Shown: piece by piece, positions 242 to 51,347 of the stretch
Layout of the letters: each line of letters starts with the position of its first letter
Position numbering within the stretch: position 1 is the first letter of the stretch
Assembly (NCBI GenBank): GCA_050952645.1
Contig: JBMNLI010000009.1
Span: 1,800 to 65,799 of the forward strand
Length of the DNA stretch: 64,000 nt
Direction: 5' to 3'
Origin: Bdellovibrionota bacterium
GTDB taxonomy: Bacteria > Bdellovibrionota_C > UBA2361 > CAKMMH01
Translations under genes and position numbers: made by a program
The notes under the pieces: model-generated
What the model was told of the DNA's origin: nothing
Seen by the model: only the letters and a program-made list of their open reading frames with translations
Databases searched by the model: none

Positions 242-1760
<1,519 letters not shown>

Positions 1761-2486
1761 GTTTTTAAAAATCTGCTACTATGTTTATCGCTACACCAAT
1801 TAACGATAAACACTAATAAATCTTTTAGTCTAATGCACTAAAAACTAAAAACTATAAAAGTTCTTATCTCTTTTAAGATTACTTATCGAAATTACTTTCT
1901 ATCATCACTCTTAGCTTCTACCCATAACCCGATTGTTTTGCACTCTAAATCTTAAGGCTTATATTTTATCTTAATGATTTTATCATAGCAAAATAAAAAA
2001 ATCAAAAGCGCATCAAAAGCACCACGACTTAAAGCCTATATGTTTTAACACAATAGGAATCCTTATGCAAGCACTTTCTAAAATTTTTTTTATTTTTTTA
2101 TTTAAAATTTTAGAAATCTCTCAAGAACTAATCAACACAACTAATGCACGCATTATATATATTACCATTATAAAAATGATTATAAAAATGCGATATAAAA
2201 GGCACTAAAGCCTTTTTGCATCACTGCATTCTTTCTAAATTTTCCTATATCAAGTGTTCAGGTAAAATATCACACCTAAAAACAAAGTCAACACTTTTTT
2301 TAAAAAAAACTTAAAAATCTTTAAATAGTTAATATAGCGTTTTATATAAAATTTATAAGGGATTTTCTACCGATAAGAACTTAACTCCTAAAAGGAGCTA
2401 GAGAACATTTAAGACTACCTAAAAGAAAGAAAATACAATAATATATAACAAATAATTTAACCTTATTTTATACGTTTTTAAACTTT

Positions 2487-29555: not shown

Positions 29556-29871
29556 GGTTCTTCACATTTTAGGTGGGTTAGAAAAATTGTTTTTGGAGGT
29601 TAGCTTAAAAGAAAATTGGAGCTAGCTAAAGCTAGCGGAGATTTTCTTTTGGGCTTCGTGGGGTTGGTGATACTAATTTTAAGGCCCAAAACCTACCTTA
29701 AAACGTGAAGAGCCTTGTTTTTGGGGTTTGATAATGCTTATAGTAAAGCTTATCCCTGAATGTATTTTTAAAAAGCTTAAAATGTAAAACTAGAAAAAAA
29801 TAAAAGGTTCTTCACGTTTTAAGAGGGCTTAGAAAGATTGTTTTTTGGGTTACCTTAAAACGTGAAGAGCC
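29556..29871 (+). mobile_element. composite MITE-like insertion (full unit 29556..29714 plus short unit 29806..29871) flanked by 8-bp TSD TAAAAATT
   Basis: Termini GGTTCTTCACATTTTAGGTGGG ... CCTTAAAACGTGAAGAGCC. TAAAAATT occurs at 29548-29555 and 29872-29879. The left TSD overlaps the lipA stop codon. Confidence 0.7.
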
Positions 29872-30045
29872 TAAAAATTTAAAGTCTAGTAAAAAACAAT
29901 AAGTTTAAAACTTTTATATTTCTATACGCAAAATTATTTGATATATTTCTATTAAATCATCTAAAAAAAAGAAGAGAGACATTTACAAAATAAACTTTTG
30001 TGTCATCTTTAGATTCATTTAAAAAAATTCTATTTGGAGGAATAA

Positions 30046-30429
30046 ATGCAAACGAAAATTTTAAGAAAAATTTTAATTTTCTCAATACTTTTAAGTTTTA
30101 CAGGTTGTGGCTTTGTTTACAATGAAAAAACTCTTAAAGATTTAAAAGATCCTTACGCATCACAAAATTGTAGCTACGAAGTATTATTAAACGTTAAAAA
30201 CGACCCTAGAGATGCTAACTACATCGCATCACAAAATTTTCAAACTATCGGAGTTTCTACCGTTAATAAGTTCTGGGTTTGGCCTTGGCCACCAACCATC
30301 CCTTATTATAGAAAAGATTTTAAGGCTTTAGTTTGTGAAACTGGTGCAGATGCGATAGAAGTATATCGTGGTGTAGGAACACCTCACTTTAGAAATGCAA
30401 GAATTAGACTATTAAAGCGTGCAAGATAA
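30046..30429 (+). CDS. putative lipoprotein
   Basis: 127 aa. Signal peptide with lipobox LSFTGC. Confidence 0.5.
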   Translation: MQTKILRKILIFSILLSFTGCGFVYNEKTLKDLKDPYASQNCSYEVLLNVKNDPRDANYIASQNFQTIGVSTVNKFWVWPWPPTIPYYRKDFKALVCETGADAIEVYRGVGTPHFRNARIRLLKRAR

Positions 30430-30538
30430 GTAAAAAAATAATTAAAAAAGTAATTAAAGAAAAATAATAAACTAAAGAAATAAAAATTTAAGATTTTAAA
30501 AAGGAAAGCTTATTAAAAAAGGCTTTCCTTTTTTATCT

Positions 30539-30610
30539 TAAACTTTCCCTTGTTTTACGTATAAAATTTAATTTTAACTTTATAACCTACTCAAAATAAT
30601 TTAAAAAATT
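30539..30610. repeat. ~70-bp dispersed repeat (AAACTTTCCCYTGTTTTACGTATA...AATTTTAATTTTAA), solo copy
   Basis: Near-identical to 35771..35845. Its first 25 bp also occur inverted at 35948..35972. Confidence 0.5.
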
Positions 30611-30677
30611 CTTTCTTTTTAAATCTTTCTTTTAAAAAACTCTACAATACTATTTTATACTTACTATTTTATACTTA

Positions 30678-31355
30678 CTACTTTATACTTACTACTTCTT
30701 TGTTTTTTTTAGAAACTAAAATCTCAGTTGCGAAATTAGTAAAGATGCCATTTTCAACCACCCCAGGAATGCTATTTATCTCTTTTTCAAGATCGTCTTC
30801 TATTTTTTCAAATTCTACATCGTAAATTACATTTCCAAACTCCGTGATAACTTCTCCATGTTTTTTTTCAGCCATTCTTAAACTTATATTTTTTATATTA
30901 AAATTTCTTTCTAAAATTTTTTCTACACTCCTTATCGCTAAAGGATTTACCTCGATAGGAACTAGCGATTTTTTGGCAATGTTTTTAGCAAGCTTCGTCT
31001 CATCTACGATAATCACGTAATTTTTAGAAACGCTAGCTAAAATTTTTTCTCTTAACATTGCTCCCCCTTTGCCTTTTATAACTCTTTTCCTATCATCTAC
31101 GGCATCTGCGCCATCAAAAGAAAAATCGATGCTATAAGGCACAATATCGGAAAGCACACGAATGCCTAACGCTTCGCAAAATCTCGTCGTAGAAATAGAT
31201 GTTGAAATAGCGCTAACTTTAAAATTATTTTCTAGTGATTTTTTCGCAATTTCTCTTATCGCATAATCGACGGTCGACCCTGTGCCTATACCAATTAAGC
31301 AATCTTTATTTATTCTTTTTGCTATCTCTAGCCCTAAATTTAATTTTAAATCCAT
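30678..31355 (-). CDS. rpiA: ribose-5-phosphate isomerase A
   Basis: 225 aa. GIGTGSTV phosphate-binding motif, GADAVD and KGKGGAM blocks. Confidence 0.85.
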   Translation of the reverse strand: MDLKLNLGLEIAKRINKDCLIGIGTGSTVDYAIREIAKKSLENNFKVSAISTSISTTRFCEALGIRVLSDIVPYSIDFSFDGADAVDDRKRVIKGKGGAMLREKILASVSKNYVIIVDETKLAKNIAKKSLVPIEVNPLAIRSVEKILERNFNIKNISLRMAEKKHGEVITEFGNVIYDVEFEKIEDDLEKEINSIPGVVENGIFTNFATEILVSKKNKEVVSIK

Positions 31356-32729: not shown

Positions 32730-33107
32730 TTAATTTTTCATTTCATATAGTGCATGTTTATTATCTCTAAATAGTAATAAAAAATCATTACTTTTGAATA
32801 ATTTTTTATCGATACTACTTTTACCATCTACTAAAGTGTATTTAGCTTTTTCTTTTATACTGTACTGTTTCATATTATCTGATGATTTAAGAGATAAAAA
32901 GTAATTTTTATAACTTTCTTCCCCTAGTAGTGTATTTCTATCATCGATAACGGGCTTAACGCCATCTCTTAGGTGCCATAAAAAACCTGGGTCGTTAAAA
33001 AAATTTTGCGATTTTAACATTAGTAGCAGGCAAAATAATATTGTAGCTACTAATATGGTAGCAAGACTTATTTTAAATAACTTTTTTTTATCTTTCTTTA
33101 ATATCAT
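32730..33107 (-). CDS. small membrane-anchored hypothetical protein
   Basis: 125 aa, one N-terminal TM helix. Confidence 0.4.
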   Translation of the reverse strand: MILKKDKKKLFKISLATILVATILFCLLLMLKSQNFFNDPGFLWHLRDGVKPVIDDRNTLLGEESYKNYFLSLKSSDNMKQYSIKEKAKYTLVDGKSSIDKKLFKSNDFLLLFRDNKHALYEMKN

Positions 33108-33842: not shown

Positions 33843-34126
33843 ATTATCTCCAATAAAAAAAACGTAACCAATAAAAACACTATTTTTTACGGCTACAAAT
33901 AAAGTTTCAAGAAAGTAATTTCTTTGAAACTTTTAAAATGTTATATATATTTTAAACTTTGCGCAATACTATATTTACAAAGTATTTCACTTTTTTTATT
34001 TTTTTACTCCTGTTTTAATGGGGTAAAACTACTTAAGCCTAGCAAGAAAAGGGTATTGACAAAAAGAAAAATTAGTTGTTCATTTTTTTTAATTCTTTGC
34101 ATAATTTTAATATACGCACAAACAGC

Positions 34127-35292
34127 CTATTTTAACACTTTCCACTCTAGGTCTTGTTTAGTGCCTACTTGCTCAATATAAGATTTTTTTCTAAGCGATG
34201 CTAGTGTTCGTTGAACGGTTCTTGCAGTTTTAGAAATCTTATCTGCCAACTCCTGTGTCGATAGGGTAGGGTTTTGTTTTAATAGAGCATACACCGCTTT
34301 TTCAGTGCCATTTAAAGTCGCATCTAAAGTAATTTTTGAAATATCGCCTTGAATTAAAGGGCGATAGATTATAAATTTAAATCCGTTTTCTTTATTTTCA
34401 TAAGCATACTTGATTTTTGAATCTTTACACAAACTATCTATTCTCTTAAAACCACTACCAAACTGCTCTATGTATTTACTTAAATATAAAATTTTTGAGA
34501 TTGTCGCATTTCTTATTTCAGACTCAACATTTCCTTTTATATAATCTTCAGGTTTATGCTTACTAGCATAATTCCCAGGGCTATATATAGTTATCATACT
34601 CGGGTGAATACATATCTCATGGATAGTCTTACTTCCATATAATGCATGAGCAAACCCATTTGCTAAAATCTGGTTCTTCACGTTTTAGGTGGGTTAGAAA
34701 AATTGTTTTTGGGGGTTAGCTTAAAAGAAAATTGGCTTTTATAGAAAACTATCTATAGTTTAAAGAAAAATTACAACTATATTTAAAGTAATTTATTTTA
34801 TGCAAATTTCTTTAAAGTCAATTTTCTTTTGGGCTTCGTGAGGTGAGTGATACTAATTTTAAGGTCTTTAGCCCACTTAAAACGTGAAGAGCCTAAAATC
34901 TCTCTAATTACCACAGTCGGAACTTCTGGAATTTCAATTCTTTCAGAGCCTATAATTTCACTTTTCCATCTAATGTTTTTAAATATATAATCTTCCGCCT
35001 TACTTAATAAATTATAAATATTATCTTCATATAATTTCATATCTAGTATGGTTAGTTTTTCATCCGTTGCAAATATACCAACTTTTAACTGCACGGGATT
35101 AGTGCTACTAAAAAGAACCTCCCCGGCATTAATTAAATACTCATCTTTAACTAGACCAAATTTATTTAAAATCATTGGGACGGTATACTTACCATCGGGC
35201 AATCTCCCTGCCTTAATCGCTTTTTGCCAAAAAGATTTCACAGCCTTTTTATCAACTTGGTTCGATAAAGAGGTAGATTTTCCAAGGTTCAT
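34127..35292 (-). pseudogene. AlbA_2 (Schlafen-like) / HATPase_c_4-type putative transcriptional regulator split by a MITE insertion
   Basis: Upstream part 35292..34798 and downstream part 34681..34127 are separated by element 34672..34893. Removing the element and one TSD copy restores ...VVIREIL|ANGFAHALYGS..., matching the AlbA_2 hallmark RExxxNAxxHRDY. The C-terminal part carries a winged-helix (LSTQELADKISKTARTVQRTLASLRKKSYIEQVG). Confidence 0.7.
34672..34893 (+). mobile_element. MITE-like element (222 bp), 16-bp TIRs GGTTCTTCACGTTTTA / TAAAACGTGAAGAGCC, perfect 8-bp TSD TAAAATCT
   Basis: TSD at 34664-34671 and 34894-34901. The internal sequence is shared with copies at 29556, 41164 and 51243. 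Confidence 0.85.
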
Positions 35293-35299
35293 TTTATAT

Positions 35300-36140
35300 C
35301 TCTCCTTTTTTTTCTAAGCGACACTTTTGTCGCCAGTGACGACATTTTTGTCGTCACCTTTTTTAAACAAAATAAAACTTTGTCTAGTTTAATTTAGCAA
35401 TTATACATTCTCCTTTAATAACAATATGTTATGCCATTTCTAAGGCGTTTTAAACTAAAATTTTTTATAGATTATAGCCATAAACTAAACACTTTTTTTA
35501 AGCTATATGCGACACTTTTGTCGCCAGTGACGACATTATTGTCGCCTATAGCGACATTTTTGTCCATCTCCTTTTTTAAAGAAAAGAAAGCTTGTCTAGT
35601 TTAATTTGGCAAATATATATTCTCTTTTAATAACAATATGTTATACCATTTCTAAGGCGTTTTAAACTAAAATTTTTTATAGATTATAGCCATAAACTAA
35701 ACACTTTTGTCGCTATATGCGACACTTTTGTCGCTAGAGGCGACACTTTTGTCGCCCTCCTTTTTTAGTTTAAACTTTCCCCTGTTTTACGTATACAATT
35801 TTAATTTTAATTGCATAACTCACTGAAATCATTTAAAAAAATTTTTAAAAGTGCTTGCACAAAATGCTAAAATAGCATACGTATTATACGTATACCCTTA
35901 AGAAACGACAGATACCAGCCTTAGGCTAAATTTTAGGCTCTTAAAAAACTATAGTATACGTAAAACAAGGGAAAGTTTGGGATAGATTACAGCCATAAAC
36001 TAAACACTTTTTTTAAGCTATATGCGACACTTTTGCCAACTAGTGACGACATTATTGTCGCCTATAGCGACACTTTTGTCGCCACTTTTTTTTAAAAGAG
36101 AATAAAACTTTGTCTAGTTTAATTTGGCAATTATAGTATT
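35300..36140. repeat. three direct copies of a ~210-220-bp promoter/leader-like module rich in perfect hairpin palindromes
   Basis: Marker GTCTAGTTTAATTT(A/G)GCAA recurs at 35382, 35594 and 36112. Each module carries GCGACACTTTTGTCGC and GTGACGACATTTTTGTCGTCAC palindromes followed by a T-run. It also carries a minus-strand TGTATAAT -10 box oriented toward the AlbA_2 gene start. Confidence 0.6.
35771..35972. repeat. 202-bp segment bounded by perfect 25-bp inverted repeats AAACTTTCCCCTGTTTTACGTATAC ... GTATACGTAAAACAAGGGAAAGTTT
   Basis: Inserted between modules 2 and 3 of the array above. Interior has a TTGCAC ... TGCTAAAAT promoter-like pair. The left 70 bp equal the solo repeat at 30539. Confidence 0.5.
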
Positions 36141-36782
36141 TTGTTTATTTTTAATATCTTTTTAATTATACTACTTAATATGGAATTTAAAATTATAGAA
36201 ACAACTTTTATAGGTGGCTACAATGTGCTTTCTAAAATGCCTACAAACTTACCACAAATAGCACTTCTTGGGCGCTCAAATGTGGGAAAATCAACGCTAG
36301 TAAATAAATTATGCAAAAGAAACTCGCTAGCTAAAACTAGCAAAACCCCAGGACGCACTAAAGAGTTTAACTTCTTTGAAATCACTTATAAAATTGATGA
36401 AACTAAAAATAAATTCCACTTAGTAGATCTCCCAGGGTTTGGATTTGCTAAATTTTCAAAAACAAAACAAATATCGCTTAACAAAAATATCGTCAAATAC
36501 CTAGCCTCAGATTTACCACTTCTTGGCGTGTTTCTCCTAAACGATTCTAGAAGAACACCTAAAGAAGATGAACTAGCCATTCAAAAATTATGCTTTGAAA
36601 ATAATAGATTCCTACAAATTATTTTAACTAAAATCGATAAACTTAAAAAAAATGATATAAAAAAGCAATTATCCATTATCGCTGCTAGCTACAACTTAGA
36701 GCCACAAGATTTACTACTAAGCGGAAACGATATAGACACTAATAATATTTGGAAAAGAATTTTTGAAAGTGGTTTCTTATAA
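36141..36782 (+). CDS. engB: ribosome-biogenesis GTPase EngB/YsxC (YihA)
   Basis: G1 GRSNVGKST, G3 DLPGFG, G4 TKIDK. Likely true start at the internal MEFKI (36181). Confidence 0.8.
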   Translation: MFIFNIFLIILLNMEFKIIETTFIGGYNVLSKMPTNLPQIALLGRSNVGKSTLVNKLCKRNSLAKTSKTPGRTKEFNFFEITYKIDETKNKFHLVDLPGFGFAKFSKTKQISLNKNIVKYLASDLPLLGVFLLNDSRRTPKEDELAIQKLCFENNRFLQIILTKIDKLKKNDIKKQLSIIAASYNLEPQDLLLSGNDIDTNNIWKRIFESGFL

Positions 36783-41163: not shown

Positions 41164-41973
41164 GGTTCTCACGTTTTGGGTGGGTTAGAAAAGTTGTTTT
41201 TGGGGGTTAGCTTAAAAGAAAATTGGCTTTTATAGAAAACTATCTATAGTTTAAAGAAAAATTACAACTATATTTAAAGTAATTTATTTTATGCAAATTT
41301 CTTTAAAGTCAATTTTCTTTTGGGCTTCGTCGAGGTGAGTGATACTAATTTTAAGGTATAAAATCACCTTTAAAAGTGAAGAACAAAAGTTGTTTTTGGG
41401 GGTTAGCTTAAAAGAAAATTGGCTTTTATAGAAAACTATCTATAGTTTAAAGAAAAATTACAACTATATTTAAAGTAATTTATTTTATGCAAATTTCTTT
41501 AAAGTCAATTTTCTTTTGGGCTTCGTCGTGGTGAGTGATACTAATTTTAAGGTATAAAATCACCTTTAAAAGTGAAGAACAAAAGTTGTTTTTGGGGGTT
41601 AGCTTAAAAGAAAATTGGCTTTTATAGAAAACTATCTATAGTTTAAAGAAAAATTACAACTATACTTAAAGTAATTTATTTTATGCAAATTTCTTTAAAG
41701 TCAATTTTCTTTTGGGCTTCGTCGAGGTGAGTGATACTAATTTTAAGGTATAAAATCACCTTTAAAAGTGAAGAACAAAAGTTGTTTTGGGGGGTTAGCT
41801 TAAAAGAAAATTGGCTTTTATAGAAAACTATCTATAGTTTAAAGAAAAATTACAACTATATTTAAAGTAATTTATTTTATGCAAATTTCTTTAAAGTCAA
41901 TTTTCTTTTGGGCTTCGTCGAGGTGAGTGATACTAATTTTAAGGTCTTTAACCCACTTAAAACATGAAGAGCC
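41164..41973 (+). mobile_element. MITE-like element (810 bp) whose 196-bp internal unit is tandemly amplified about 4 times
   Basis: Left end GGTTCTCACGTTTTGGGTGGG, right end CCACTTAAAACATGAAGAGCC. Flanks AAAAATAT / AAAAACAT (7/8). Unit copies start at 41193, 41389, 41585 and 41781. Confidence 0.75.
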
Positions 41974-51242: not shown

Positions 51243-51347
51243 GGCTCTTCACGTTTTAAGGTAGGTTTTAGACCTTAAAATTAGTATCACTCACCTCGAC
51301 GAAGCCAAAAAAACAATTTTTCTAACCCACCTAAAACGTGAAGAACC
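51243..51347 (-). mobile_element. short (105 bp) deletion derivative of the MITE family, inverted orientation, perfect 8-bp TSD ATATTTTT
   Basis: GGCTCTTCACGTTTTAAGGTAGG ... CCACCTAAAACGTGAAGAACC. TSD at 51235-51242 and 51348-51355. Sits in the cpaB-tadA intergenic region. Confidence 0.8.

What the first reader, a model, noticed from the sequence alone, without database searches (positions are those of the whole stretch)
34127..35292. AlbA_2/HATPase_c_4-type regulator gene cleanly split by a MITE; the intact protein can be reconstructed in silico
The 222-bp element sits inside one minus-strand gene. Deleting the element plus one copy of the TAAAATCT duplication joins ...EIPEVPTVVIREIL to ANGFAHALYGSKTIHEICIHPSMITIYSPGNY.... 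This recreates the conserved AlbA_2 motif (RExxxNAxxHRDY-like) in frame. This is direct evidence of a recent transposition that inactivated, or split into two polypeptides, a putative DNA-binding regulator. Unusually, the element termini now supply both the new stop for the upstream half and a GTG start for the downstream half.
Basis: partly seen in the sequence, partly recalled or inferred. Interest (0 to 1): 0.6.

Follow-up and report, generated by a model that had tools for sequence, protein, structure and literature searches.

The report
Small transposon splits an acquired regulator gene
A 222-bp non-autonomous transposon (MITE) of the ISL3 type has recently landed inside a horizontally acquired regulator gene that had already lost one domain, in a low-GC Bdellovibrionota genome; this is a clear but ordinary case of gene disruption by a mobile element.

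Summary
Window 34672-34893 is a 222-bp element with 25-nt terminal inverted repeats and a perfect 8-bp target duplication (TAAAATCT). It has four other copies in the window. Removing it plus one duplication joins the two minus-strand ORFs in frame. The joined protein is 311 aa, not 340. It aligns without a gap at the junction to 444-aa AlbA_2 + HATPase_c_4 + winged-helix proteins (79% identity). Twenty homologous genes are collinear at DNA level, apart from the missing first domain.

- The window gene has no AlbA_2 domain. A 399-bp in-frame internal deletion removed it while keeping the original start (MNLGK) and the upstream operator-like palindromes.
- The junction motif (REIL|ANGFAH) lies in the first helix of the GHKL-like HATPase_c_4 region, not in AlbA_2.
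- The new stop lies 31 codons inside the element, not at its terminus.
- The GTG in the terminal repeat has no ribosome-binding site or promoter.

New context:
- The gene and a ~0.8-kb block of repeats of its 5' region form a ~2-kb lineage-specific insert. A related species has HU directly next to EngB.
- The repeat sequence (GGCTCTTCACGTTT) and the 8-bp duplication match ISL3-family elements.
- Another copy is absent from a ~99%-identical strain, so the family was recently active.

Verdict: real, well explained, a new member of a known kind, low to moderate interest.

The parts
34672..34893 (.). 222-bp MITE (non-autonomous, ISL3-like ends) inserted in the gene
   Evidence: Inverted repeats and target duplication. 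94-97% identical to the copies at 41164-41973. Folds as one long hairpin, dG -39.7 kcal/mol, z = -7.7. No ORF of 30 aa or more lies wholly inside it.
34672..34696 (+). Terminal inverted repeat, GGTTCTTCACGTTTTAGGTGGGTTA
34869..34893 (-). Terminal inverted repeat, GGCTCTTCACGTTTTAAGTGGGCTA as read on the minus strand
   Evidence: The first 14 nt match the ISL3-family ISArsp7 right repeat (GGCTCTTCGCGTTT) at 13 of 14 positions (PMC6305408).
34664..34671 (.). Target-site duplication copy 1 (TAAAATCT)
34894..34901 (.). Target-site duplication copy 2 (TAAAATCT); it encodes part of E-I-L
34894..35292 (-). Native 5' part of the gene (codons 1-133: MNLGK...VVIREIL)
   Evidence: Matches P0001 residues 1-5 and 139-266.
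34798..34893 (-). Element-encoded tail of 31 codons (GSSRFKWAKDLKISITHLTKPKRKLTLKKFA) plus the stop at 34798-34800
34127..34663 (-). Native 3' part of the gene (ANGFAH... to the stop): HATPase_c_4 and winged helix-turn-helix
   Evidence: Pfam HATPase_c_4 E = 2e-10 and HTH_24 E = 1e-6. Collinear with P0001 residues 267-444.
34679..34681 (-). GTG inside the terminal repeat, the mechanical start of the 184-aa ORF. It is preceded by ACCCACCTAAAAC, which has no Shine-Dalgarno sequence.
   Evidence: The gene caller on Logan contig L022 used the ATG at 34597 instead.
35318..35357 (.). Two operator-like palindromes, GCGACACTTTTGTCGC and GTGACGACATTTTTGTCGTCAC. The nearer one ends 23 nt upstream of the ATG.
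   Evidence: A GYGACAnnnnTGTCRC box is found in 17 fetched loci. In at least nine of the 444-aa homolog loci it lies 44-59 nt upstream of the start.
35305..36140 (.). Three to four direct repeats of about 212 bp derived from the gene's 5' region, each carrying 21-nt-spaced palindromes
34070..36140 (.). Lineage-specific block of about 2 kb (split gene plus repeats) between HU and EngB; boundaries approximate
   Evidence: The related species L027/L028 has HU directly next to EngB with a 457-bp spacer. Homology to the window stops at about 34016-34070 and resumes at about 36148.

Best explanation
The host is a Bdellovibrionota bacterium with about 30% G+C.

Step 1 (shown by synteny): its lineage acquired about 2 kb of foreign DNA between the HU and EngB genes. 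This DNA carries one gene of the AlbA_2 / HATPase_c_4 / winged-helix family of putative regulators.

Step 2 (shown by alignment; the mechanism is inferred): a 399-bp in-frame deletion removed codons 6-138, the whole AlbA_2 domain. It lies between two GG(A/C)AAA microhomologies. The original start codon, ribosome-binding site and operator-like palindromes were kept. The 5' regulatory region was also amplified into ~212-bp repeats.

Step 3 (shown): a 222-bp MITE transposed into codon 131-133, duplicating 8 bp of target. Its ends (GGCTCTTCACGTTT...) and 8-bp duplication are those of ISL3-family elements. It must therefore have been moved in trans by an ISL3-type DDE transposase encoded elsewhere (inferred; no partner was found).

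Consequence: the insertion breaks the first helix of the GHKL-like HATPase_c_4 region between the E and the N of the ExxxN motif. It adds 230 nt, which is not a multiple of three, and puts stops in all three frames. The gene is therefore a pseudogene. The upstream product would be 133 native residues plus 31 junk residues. The downstream half has no evident translation signal.

Timing: the insertion is recent. The duplication is perfect, and neither half shows relaxed selection.
For: - Element anatomy and copy number.
- In-frame reconstruction.
- Gap-free protein alignment across the junction to 444-aa homologs.
- DNA collinearity with 20 loci, where the element plus duplication is the only insertion and the two matches overlap on the subject by 4-7 nt in the nine closest loci.
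- AlbA_2 absent here but present in homologs.
- The start region ATGAACCTTGGAAAA matches the homologs' start ATGAATCTCGGAAAA at 13 of 15 nt, and both differences are synonymous. It then joins at homolog codon 139.
- The same arrangement of two palindromes about 22 nt before the ATG occurs in homologs from several phyla.
- The gene is absent from the syntenic HU-EngB spacer of a related species.
- dN/dS of the window gene against intact homologs is 0.06-0.08, the same as among intact homologs (0.065-0.07). pN is equal in both halves.
- Strain L026, about 99% identical, has the empty site (a single AAAAATAT) for the copy at 41164-41973.
- ISL3 ends and 8-bp duplications in the literature: PMC11448079 and PMC6305408.
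- Stops in all three frames through the element.
- Independent Logan contig L022 runs from inside the terminal repeat through the duplication into the 3' half at 100% identity.
- The junction lies in helix 259-272 of the model, and the region matches GHKL ATPase folds and 3LMM.
- The host is a Bdellovibrionota MAG.
Against: - No empty-site allele of this particular insertion was found. Contigs of the two related strains stop at the edges of the block. No intact ortholog above 80% identity exists among 5.8 billion clustered proteins.
- No autonomous ISL3 partner with matching ends was found in the window, the fetched loci or JGI metagenome contigs.
- Synonymous sites are near saturation (pS about 0.7). 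The dN/dS argument is therefore coarse and cannot date the AlbA_2 deletion relative to the MITE insertion.
- Only one of the two junctions is confirmed by a second assembly, and that assembly may derive from the same sample.
- Whether the 311-aa AlbA_2-less protein was still functional before the insertion is unknown.
Confidence: 0.85

Rival explanations
1. Functional split: the insertion converted one regulator into two working polypeptides. The downstream HATPase_c_4 + winged-helix half would be translated from the GTG in the terminal repeat and perhaps transcribed from the element.
For: A 184-aa ORF starts at a GTG inside the repeat and keeps an intact winged helix. Neither half shows an excess of non-synonymous change.
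Against: There is no Shine-Dalgarno sequence in the 13 nt before the GTG. No promoter-like site lies on the minus strand inside the element, and promoter-like counts in the region are at chance level (14 against 10.1 +/- 3.9). The break falls inside a predicted helix of the GHKL-like fold, between the E and the N of the ExxxN motif. The lack of decay is equally well explained by a recent insertion.
Confidence: 0.08
2. The gene was already dead before the MITE arrived. On this view the AlbA_2 deletion had inactivated it, and the MITE merely landed in a neutral remnant of a decaying foreign island.
For: The AlbA_2 domain is nearly invariant and present in nearly all full-length homologs. The only 311-aa 'short form' in the database (P0072) is itself the 3' ORF of a pseudogene. 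All four other MITE copies in the window are intergenic, so this is the only intragenic one. The genome shows other deletions relative to its relative.
Against: The deletion is exactly in frame and retains start, ribosome-binding site and operators. dN/dS is as low as in intact homologs. Saturation of synonymous sites weakens this last point.
Confidence: 0.3
3. Assembly artefact: a repeat-induced misjoin placed a MITE copy inside the gene in the metagenome-assembled genome.
For: Short-read contigs from the same organism break at or near MITEs and repeats.
Against: A misjoin would not create a perfect 8-bp duplication of the gene's own sequence on both sides while leaving the frame restorable. 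Logan contig L022 independently reads from the repeat through the duplication into the gene.
Confidence: 0.02
4. Two naturally separate genes, or an in-frame 'palindromic element' of the Rickettsia RPE type that is tolerated within the protein.
For: None beyond the existence of two ORFs.
Against: Homologs in every locus examined are single contiguous genes across this point. The insertion of 230 nt shifts the frame and carries stops in all three frames.
Confidence: 0.01

Closest known systems
ISL3-family-derived MITEs, for example the Microcystis aeruginosa PCC 7806 MITE described in PMC11448079
   Same: Short non-coding element. Terminal repeats begin GGCTCTTC. 8-bp target duplication. Multiple copies. 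Insertion polymorphism between near-identical genomes. Able to disrupt genes.
   Different: The internal sequence is unrelated, and there are no hits in plasmid records or JGI contigs. The host phylum is Bdellovibrionota. No autonomous partner was identified here. One copy carries its ~196-bp body as a 4-unit tandem array.
ISArsp7 (ISL3 family, Arthrobacter plasmids; PMC6305408)
   Same: The repeat start GGCTCTTCGCGTTT matches the MITE's GGCTCTTCACGTTT at 13 of 14 positions. It also makes an 8-bp direct repeat.
   Different: ISArsp7 is a 1,451-bp autonomous element with a transposase. The window element is 222 bp and non-coding.
AlbA_2 (SLFN_AlbA_2, PF04326) + HATPase_c_4 (PF13749) + winged-helix proteins, often mis-annotated 'ATP-dependent DNA helicase RecG'; solved example 3LMM (DIP2311, Corynebacterium diphtheriae)
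   Same: 79% identity over residues 139-444 of the 444-aa members. HATPase_c_4 and winged-helix hits pass Pfam thresholds. A model of the family matches 3LMM at E = 4e-17, and matches GHKL ATPase domains more weakly.
   Different: The window copy lacks the AlbA_2 domain entirely and is split by the MITE. The function of the family is not established experimentally, as far as I could find.
Rickettsia palindromic elements (RPE) and Neisseria Correia elements
   Same: Small palindromic repeats that can sit inside or next to genes.
   Different: RPEs insert in frame and remain translated. This element shifts the frame and carries stops. Correia elements duplicate TA (from my own knowledge), not 8 bp.

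Membership tests
Bacterial MITE (non-autonomous DNA transposon) | Terminal inverted repeats | tested here: met
   25-nt arms, 88% complementary.
Bacterial MITE (non-autonomous DNA transposon) | Target-site duplication flanking the element | tested here: met
   Perfect 8-bp TAAAATCT here. Perfect ATATTTTT at copy 51243-51347. 7 of 8 at the array 41164-41973.
Bacterial MITE (non-autonomous DNA transposon) | Small size and no transposase coding capacity | tested here: met
   222 bp, no internal ORF of 30 aa or more, stops in all frames on the gene strand.
Bacterial MITE (non-autonomous DNA transposon) | Multiple dispersed copies in the genome | tested here: met
   Five loci in 64 kb: 8 terminal-repeat matches against 0 expected, plus blastn copies.
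Bacterial MITE (non-autonomous DNA transposon) | Presence/absence polymorphism (empty site) | tested here: inconclusive
   For this copy, the only evidence is homologous genes in other phyla that lack it. For a sister copy, a true empty site exists in strain L026. No same-species empty site was found for this insertion.
ISL3-family derivative | Terminal repeats beginning GGCTCTTC(G) | tested here: met
   GGCTCTTCACGTTT compared with the published GGCTCTTCG... and GGCTCTTCGCGTTT.
ISL3-family derivative | 8-bp target duplication | tested here: met
   for the family rule.
ISL3-family derivative | Autonomous partner encoding a DDE_Tnp_ISL3 transposase with matching ends | not testable with these tools
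   None in the ORFs scanned with Pfam, none in the fetched loci, and 0 hits in JGI contigs. The rest of the genome is not available.
AlbA_2 / HATPase_c_4 / winged-helix regulator family | N-terminal SLFN_AlbA_2 domain (PF04326) | tested here: not met
   No hit in the reconstructed protein even at E <= 1. It is present at residues 6-116 of P0001. tblastn finds no remnant in the window.
AlbA_2 / HATPase_c_4 / winged-helix regulator family | HATPase_c_4 domain (PF13749) | tested here: met
   39.1 bits against a cutoff of 26, residues 152-229.
AlbA_2 / HATPase_c_4 / winged-helix regulator family | C-terminal winged helix-turn-helix | tested here: met
   HTH_24, 28 bits against a cutoff of 21.9, residues 250-297.
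AlbA_2 / HATPase_c_4 / winged-helix regulator family | Contiguity of the reconstructed junction with intact members | tested here: met
   VVIREIL|ANGFAHALYG aligns to AVIREVL|ANSFAHAMYG with no gap.
In-frame palindromic insertion (Rickettsia RPE type) | Insertion length a multiple of three with an open frame through the element | tested here: not met
   230 nt added, with stops in all three frames.

The most novel reading that the evidence does not exclude
The locus may not be plain debris. On this reading, the wHTH-bearing downstream half is still made, from the GTG in the terminal repeat or from the ATG at 34597. It would bind the array of at least eight GYGACAnnnnTGTCRC-type palindromes that were amplified just upstream. 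The result would be a domesticated mini-regulator or decoy system created by successive deletion, amplification and MITE insertion. Separately, the MITE family itself, with ISL3-like ends and a body that can expand into a 4-unit tandem array, would be a previously undescribed active family in Bdellovibrionota.
Probability: 0.07. Interest if true: 0.45.

Novelty: new member of a known kind. Interest (0 to 1): 0.27.

Why it matters
The finding documents, base by base, three successive steps in the decay of a horizontally acquired gene: domain deletion, amplification of the regulatory region, and MITE disruption. The host is an uncultured, low-GC Bdellovibrionota lineage that shows other signs of gene loss. 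It also identifies a recently active MITE family with ISL3-type ends, whose copies differ between strains that are about 99% identical. Such copies can serve as strain markers, and they cause breaks in metagenome assemblies. It corrects an annotation pitfall: two 'hypothetical' ORFs here are one pseudogene. A side observation is that this regulator family travels between phyla with a conserved palindromic operator, which gives a testable binding site for an uncharacterised family. None of this changes current understanding of transposition.

Tried and rejected
- Exact-protein look-ups of the 184-aa, 164-aa and 213-aa ORFs found nothing on record. The reconstructed protein could not be looked up.
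- The 156-aa version exists only on Logan contig L022.
- A JGI metagenome scan for the terminal repeat GGYTCTTCACGTTTTARGTGGG gave 0 hits. A scan for a degenerate back-translation of ANGFAHALYG, meant to find orthologs with or without the element, also gave 0 hits.
- blastn of the MITE against 72,556 plasmids gave only short AT-rich chance matches.
- Rfam on 33900-36200 gave only sub-threshold chance hits, E = 0.56 and 0.93.
- PADLOC gave only weak winged-helix and PNTD-like matches, with no defence-system assignment.
- phmmer against PDB sequences gave nothing. A fold search was needed to reach 3LMM.
- I considered that a natural 311-aa short isoform exists (P0072, 311 aa, many contigs). I rejected this because its locus carries the AlbA_2 coding region upstream with a TGA at codon 4 and a frame change.
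- I considered a 5' truncation with a new start instead of an internal deletion. The bases upstream of the ATG match the homologs' internal sequence at only 10 of 24 positions. The start itself matches the homologs' start at 13 of 15, and the operator spacing is conserved. I therefore prefer the internal deletion.
- I considered the palindromes to be terminators, since the scan flags them on the + strand. I rejected this because the homolog loci keep the palindrome but not the T-run.

Full report

Yes. On the minus strand the sequence reads ...GTGGTAATTAGAGAGATTTTA|GGCTCTTCACGTTTTAAGTGGGCTA...(element)...TAACCCACCTAAAACGTGAAGAACC|AGATTTTAGCAAATGGG....
- The repeat finder reports inverted arms at 34672-34696 and 34869-34893 (25 nt, 88% complementary). 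It also reports the direct repeat CTAAAATCT at 34663-34671 and 34893-34901. After allowing for the last base of the terminal repeat, this is an 8-bp target duplication, TAAAATCT, at 34664-34671 and 34894-34901.
- An 8/8 match has a probability of about 5e-5 at this base composition.
- The terminal-repeat pattern occurs 8 times in the window against 0.00 expected.
- blastn with the element finds four further copies or derivatives:
  - 29556-29714 (159 bp);
  - 29806-29871 (66 bp, little more than the two ends);
  - 51243-51347 (105 bp, perfect 8-bp duplication ATATTTTT);
  - 41164-41973.
- The element folds as one long hairpin (dG -39.7 kcal/mol, z = -7.7) and has no coding capacity.

**2. Does removing it restore a gene?**

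Yes.
- Deleting 34672-34901 gives one minus-strand ORF of 311 aa.
- The junction reads VVIREIL|ANGFAHALYG, after residue 133.
- A search of 5.8 billion clustered proteins returns 645 relatives. The best are 444 aa, 79% identical over 99% of the query, and carry PF04326 + PF13749 + winged helix.
- In the MAFFT alignment the junction faces AVIREVL|ANSFAHAMYG with no gap.
- At DNA level, blastn against 18 of 19 related loci from the genome collection gives two collinear matches. They abut on the subject with a 4-7 nt overlap in the nine closest loci (the duplicated target) and a gap of up to ~50 nt in the more distant ones. On the window they are separated by about 223 nt.
- These homologs act as empty sites from other species, and they exclude 'two naturally separate genes'.
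- The element adds 230 nt and has stops in all three frames, so read-through of the Rickettsia RPE kind is impossible.

**3.

- Pfam finds only HATPase_c_4 (residues 152-229) and a winged helix (250-297) in the reconstruction, and nothing in the upstream half alone.
- The homolog P0001 has SLFN_AlbA_2 at 6-116, HATPase_c_4 at 283-363 and the winged helix at 382-430.
- The window protein begins MNLGK, identical to residues 1-5 of the homologs. It then continues at homolog residue 139 (STSLSNQVDK against SDTLSKQVDK).
- At DNA level the start ATGAACCTTGGAAAA matches the homologs' ATGAATCTCGGAAAA at 13 of 15 positions, and both differences are synonymous. The homologs have GGAAAA at codons 4-5 and GGCAAA at codons 136-137.
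- The upstream architecture is conserved as well. Homologs from Christensenellales, Clostridiaceae, Izemoplasmatales and Anaerolineaceae all carry aGTGACAtaagTGTCACttcGTGGTACAataaTGTCAC, then about 22 nt, then the ATG. The window has GGTGACGACAaaaaTGTCGTCACtGGCGACAaaagTGTCGC, then 23 nt, then the ATG.
- I conclude that the window ATG is the ancestral one. A 399-bp in-frame deletion between the two microhomologies removed the AlbA_2 domain. The deletion mechanism is an inference.
- The alternative, a 5' truncation with a fortuitous new start, fits worse: only 10 of 24 upstream bases match the internal sequence.
- tblastn finds no AlbA_2 remnant anywhere in the window.

**4. Where exactly the protein is broken.**

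- The junction corresponds to P0001 residues 266|267. This is 150 residues past the AlbA_2 domain and 11 residues before the start of the Pfam HATPase_c_4 match. The motif is therefore not an AlbA_2 motif.
- In an AlphaFold2 model of the family (mean pLDDT 68.7; 80-90 over residues 140-370) the junction falls in the middle of helix 259-272, which is followed by two strands.
- Foldseek matches the model to 3LMM (DIP2311, unknown function) at E = 4e-17. It matches GHKL-type ATPase domains of histidine kinases and pyruvate dehydrogenase kinases at about 1e-3 to 1e-4, and the SAMD9 and SLFN12 AlbA_2-type domains for the N-terminus.
- REIL|AN fits the ExxxN 'N-box' helix of the GHKL fold. That reading comes from general knowledge of the fold, not from a test here.

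**5. Fate of the two halves.**

- The upstream ORF (34798-35292) encodes 133 native residues plus 31 element-encoded residues. Its stop at 34798-34800 lies 94-96 nt inside the element, far beyond the 25-nt terminal repeat.
- The downstream ORF starts mechanically at a GTG within the terminal repeat (34679-34681). The 13 nt before it are ACCCACCTAAAAC, with no Shine-Dalgarno sequence. The native start has AAGGAGAG.
- No promoter-like site lies on the minus strand within the element, and promoter-like matches in the region are at chance level.
- A gene caller on an independent assembly called only 156 aa, from the ATG at 34597.
- Neither the 164-aa nor the 184-aa product is on record, although other proteins of this MAG are. 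This is consistent with the locus being treated as a pseudogene, but that is an inference.

**6. Host and genomic context.**

- The window's UvrB is 100% identical to a protein named 'MAG: Bdellovibrionota bacterium'. The window has 30% G+C and carries a 16S rRNA gene.
- Contigs identical to the window occur in Logan SRR31061295 and JGI 3300060679. A 98.7% strain is in GCA_046128275.1 and a ~99% strain in ERR10905742.
- In a related species (EngB 77% identical; L027 and L028) gene order is conserved over more than 15 kb, but HU lies directly next to EngB with a 457-bp spacer.
- Homology to the window stops at about 34016-34070 and resumes at about 36148. So about 2 kb, comprising the split gene plus the region 35305-36140, is specific to the window's lineage.
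- That region consists of three to four ~212-bp direct repeats of the gene's own 5' region. They contain five exact copies of GCGACACTTTTGTCGC plus variants spaced 21 nt apart.
- The nearest relatives of the gene are in unrelated phyla at 75-80% identity, and even their 5' untranslated regions are conserved. The gene has a lower G+C than its hosts (37% against 39-48%). A pseudogenised copy sits on a TnpV/MobA element. All of this points to a gene that moves horizontally.

**7. Age of the events.**

- Nei-Gojobori estimates give dN/dS of 0.06-0.08 for the window gene against intact homologs, and 0.065-0.07 among intact homologs. pN is the same in the two halves (0.11 and 0.11 against L001).
- There is thus no trace of relaxed selection. 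Together with the perfect duplication, this makes the MITE insertion recent. Synonymous sites are near saturation (pS about 0.7), so the test is coarse.
- Recent activity of the family is shown directly. The ~99% strain L026 has PilB/GspE followed by PilC/GspF after 47 bp, with a single AAAAATAT. The window has the 810-bp copy there, flanked by AAAAATAT and AAAAACAT.

**8. Which transposon family?**

- The ends GGCTCTTCACGTTT... and the 8-bp duplication match what is published for ISL3.
- A Microcystis MITE and its ISL3 partners have ends starting GGCTCTTCG and 8-nt direct repeats (PMC11448079).
- ISArsp7 (ISL3) has the right repeat GGCTCTTCGCGTTTCGTGGTGAAT and an 8-bp direct repeat (PMC6305408). 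It matches the window element at 13 of 14 positions.
- No autonomous partner was found. Family membership therefore rests on ends and duplication only.

**9. Verdict.**

The domain assignment of the motif, the length, the source of the stop and the implied usable GTG start are wrong or unsupported. The most informative context was missed: the AlbA_2 domain had already been deleted, and the gene is a foreign island remnant.

MITE insertions into genes are well known, and this is a new member of a known kind. Interest is low to moderate. It is lifted slightly by the clean three-step decay history, the strain-level polymorphism, and the conserved operator, which offers a handle on an uncharacterised regulator family.

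Noticed in passing
window 41164-41973: A copy of the same MITE whose ~196-bp body (element positions 27-219) is repeated four times head to tail, between one left end and one right end. It sits between the PilB/GspE-like and PilC/GspF-like genes. The ~99%-identical strain L026 has the empty site with a single AAAAATAT. Tandem expansion inside a MITE is unusual.
   Followed up: partly
window 29556-29714, 29806-29871, 51243-51347: Internally deleted derivatives of the MITE (159, 66 and 105 bp). All are intergenic. The 105-bp copy has a perfect 8-bp duplication, ATATTTTT.
   Followed up: partly
window 35772-35978, and 30540-30564: A second, unrelated element bounded by inverted repeats (207 bp; 28-nt arms, 93% complementary; AAACTTTCCCYTGTTTTACGTATAC) interrupts one of the 212-bp repeats. 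A third copy of its terminal repeat lies at 30540. It is probably a second MITE family. No clear target duplication was seen.
   Followed up: partly
window 35305-36140: Three to four ~212-bp direct repeats carry iterated palindromes (GCGACACTTTTGTCGC, five exact copies, 21-nt spacing) derived from the gene's own operator region. The terminator scan also flags them as hairpins followed by T-runs. Why the regulatory region was amplified is unexplained.
   Followed up: partly
L001-L011, L019, L029-L032, about 44-59 nt upstream of the homologs' start codons: A 16-nt palindrome GYGACAnnnnTGTCRC, and the whole 5' untranslated region, are conserved upstream of this gene family in MAGs of different phyla. 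It is a candidate autoregulatory operator for an uncharacterised regulator family.
   Followed up: partly
window 32730-33107, and 29556-30678: Compared with related species L027, a 508-aa gene is reduced here to a 125-aa ORF that keeps only its N- and C-terminal ends. The DHH-family gene between the radical-SAM and RpiA genes is missing, and MITE copies occupy that space. This suggests a deletion bias or reductive evolution in this lineage.
   Followed up: partly
L029-L032 (P0072 loci): The 311-aa 'protein' P0072, listed in 112 blocks of the collection, is the 3' ORF of a pseudogene with a TGA at codon 4 and a frame change. It lies on an element with TnpV and MobA/MobL genes, next to an HTH/TPR gene and an MFS transporter.
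   Followed up: partly
L021 end (window 34013) and L026 start (window about 36051): Contigs of the two related strains end at the two edges of the ~2-kb lineage-specific block. This could reflect repeat-induced assembly breaks, or presence/absence heterogeneity of the block in those populations.
   Followed up: no
window 242-1764 (-): A complete bacterial 16S rRNA gene (1568 bits). No tRNA genes were found anywhere in the 64 kb.
   Followed up: no
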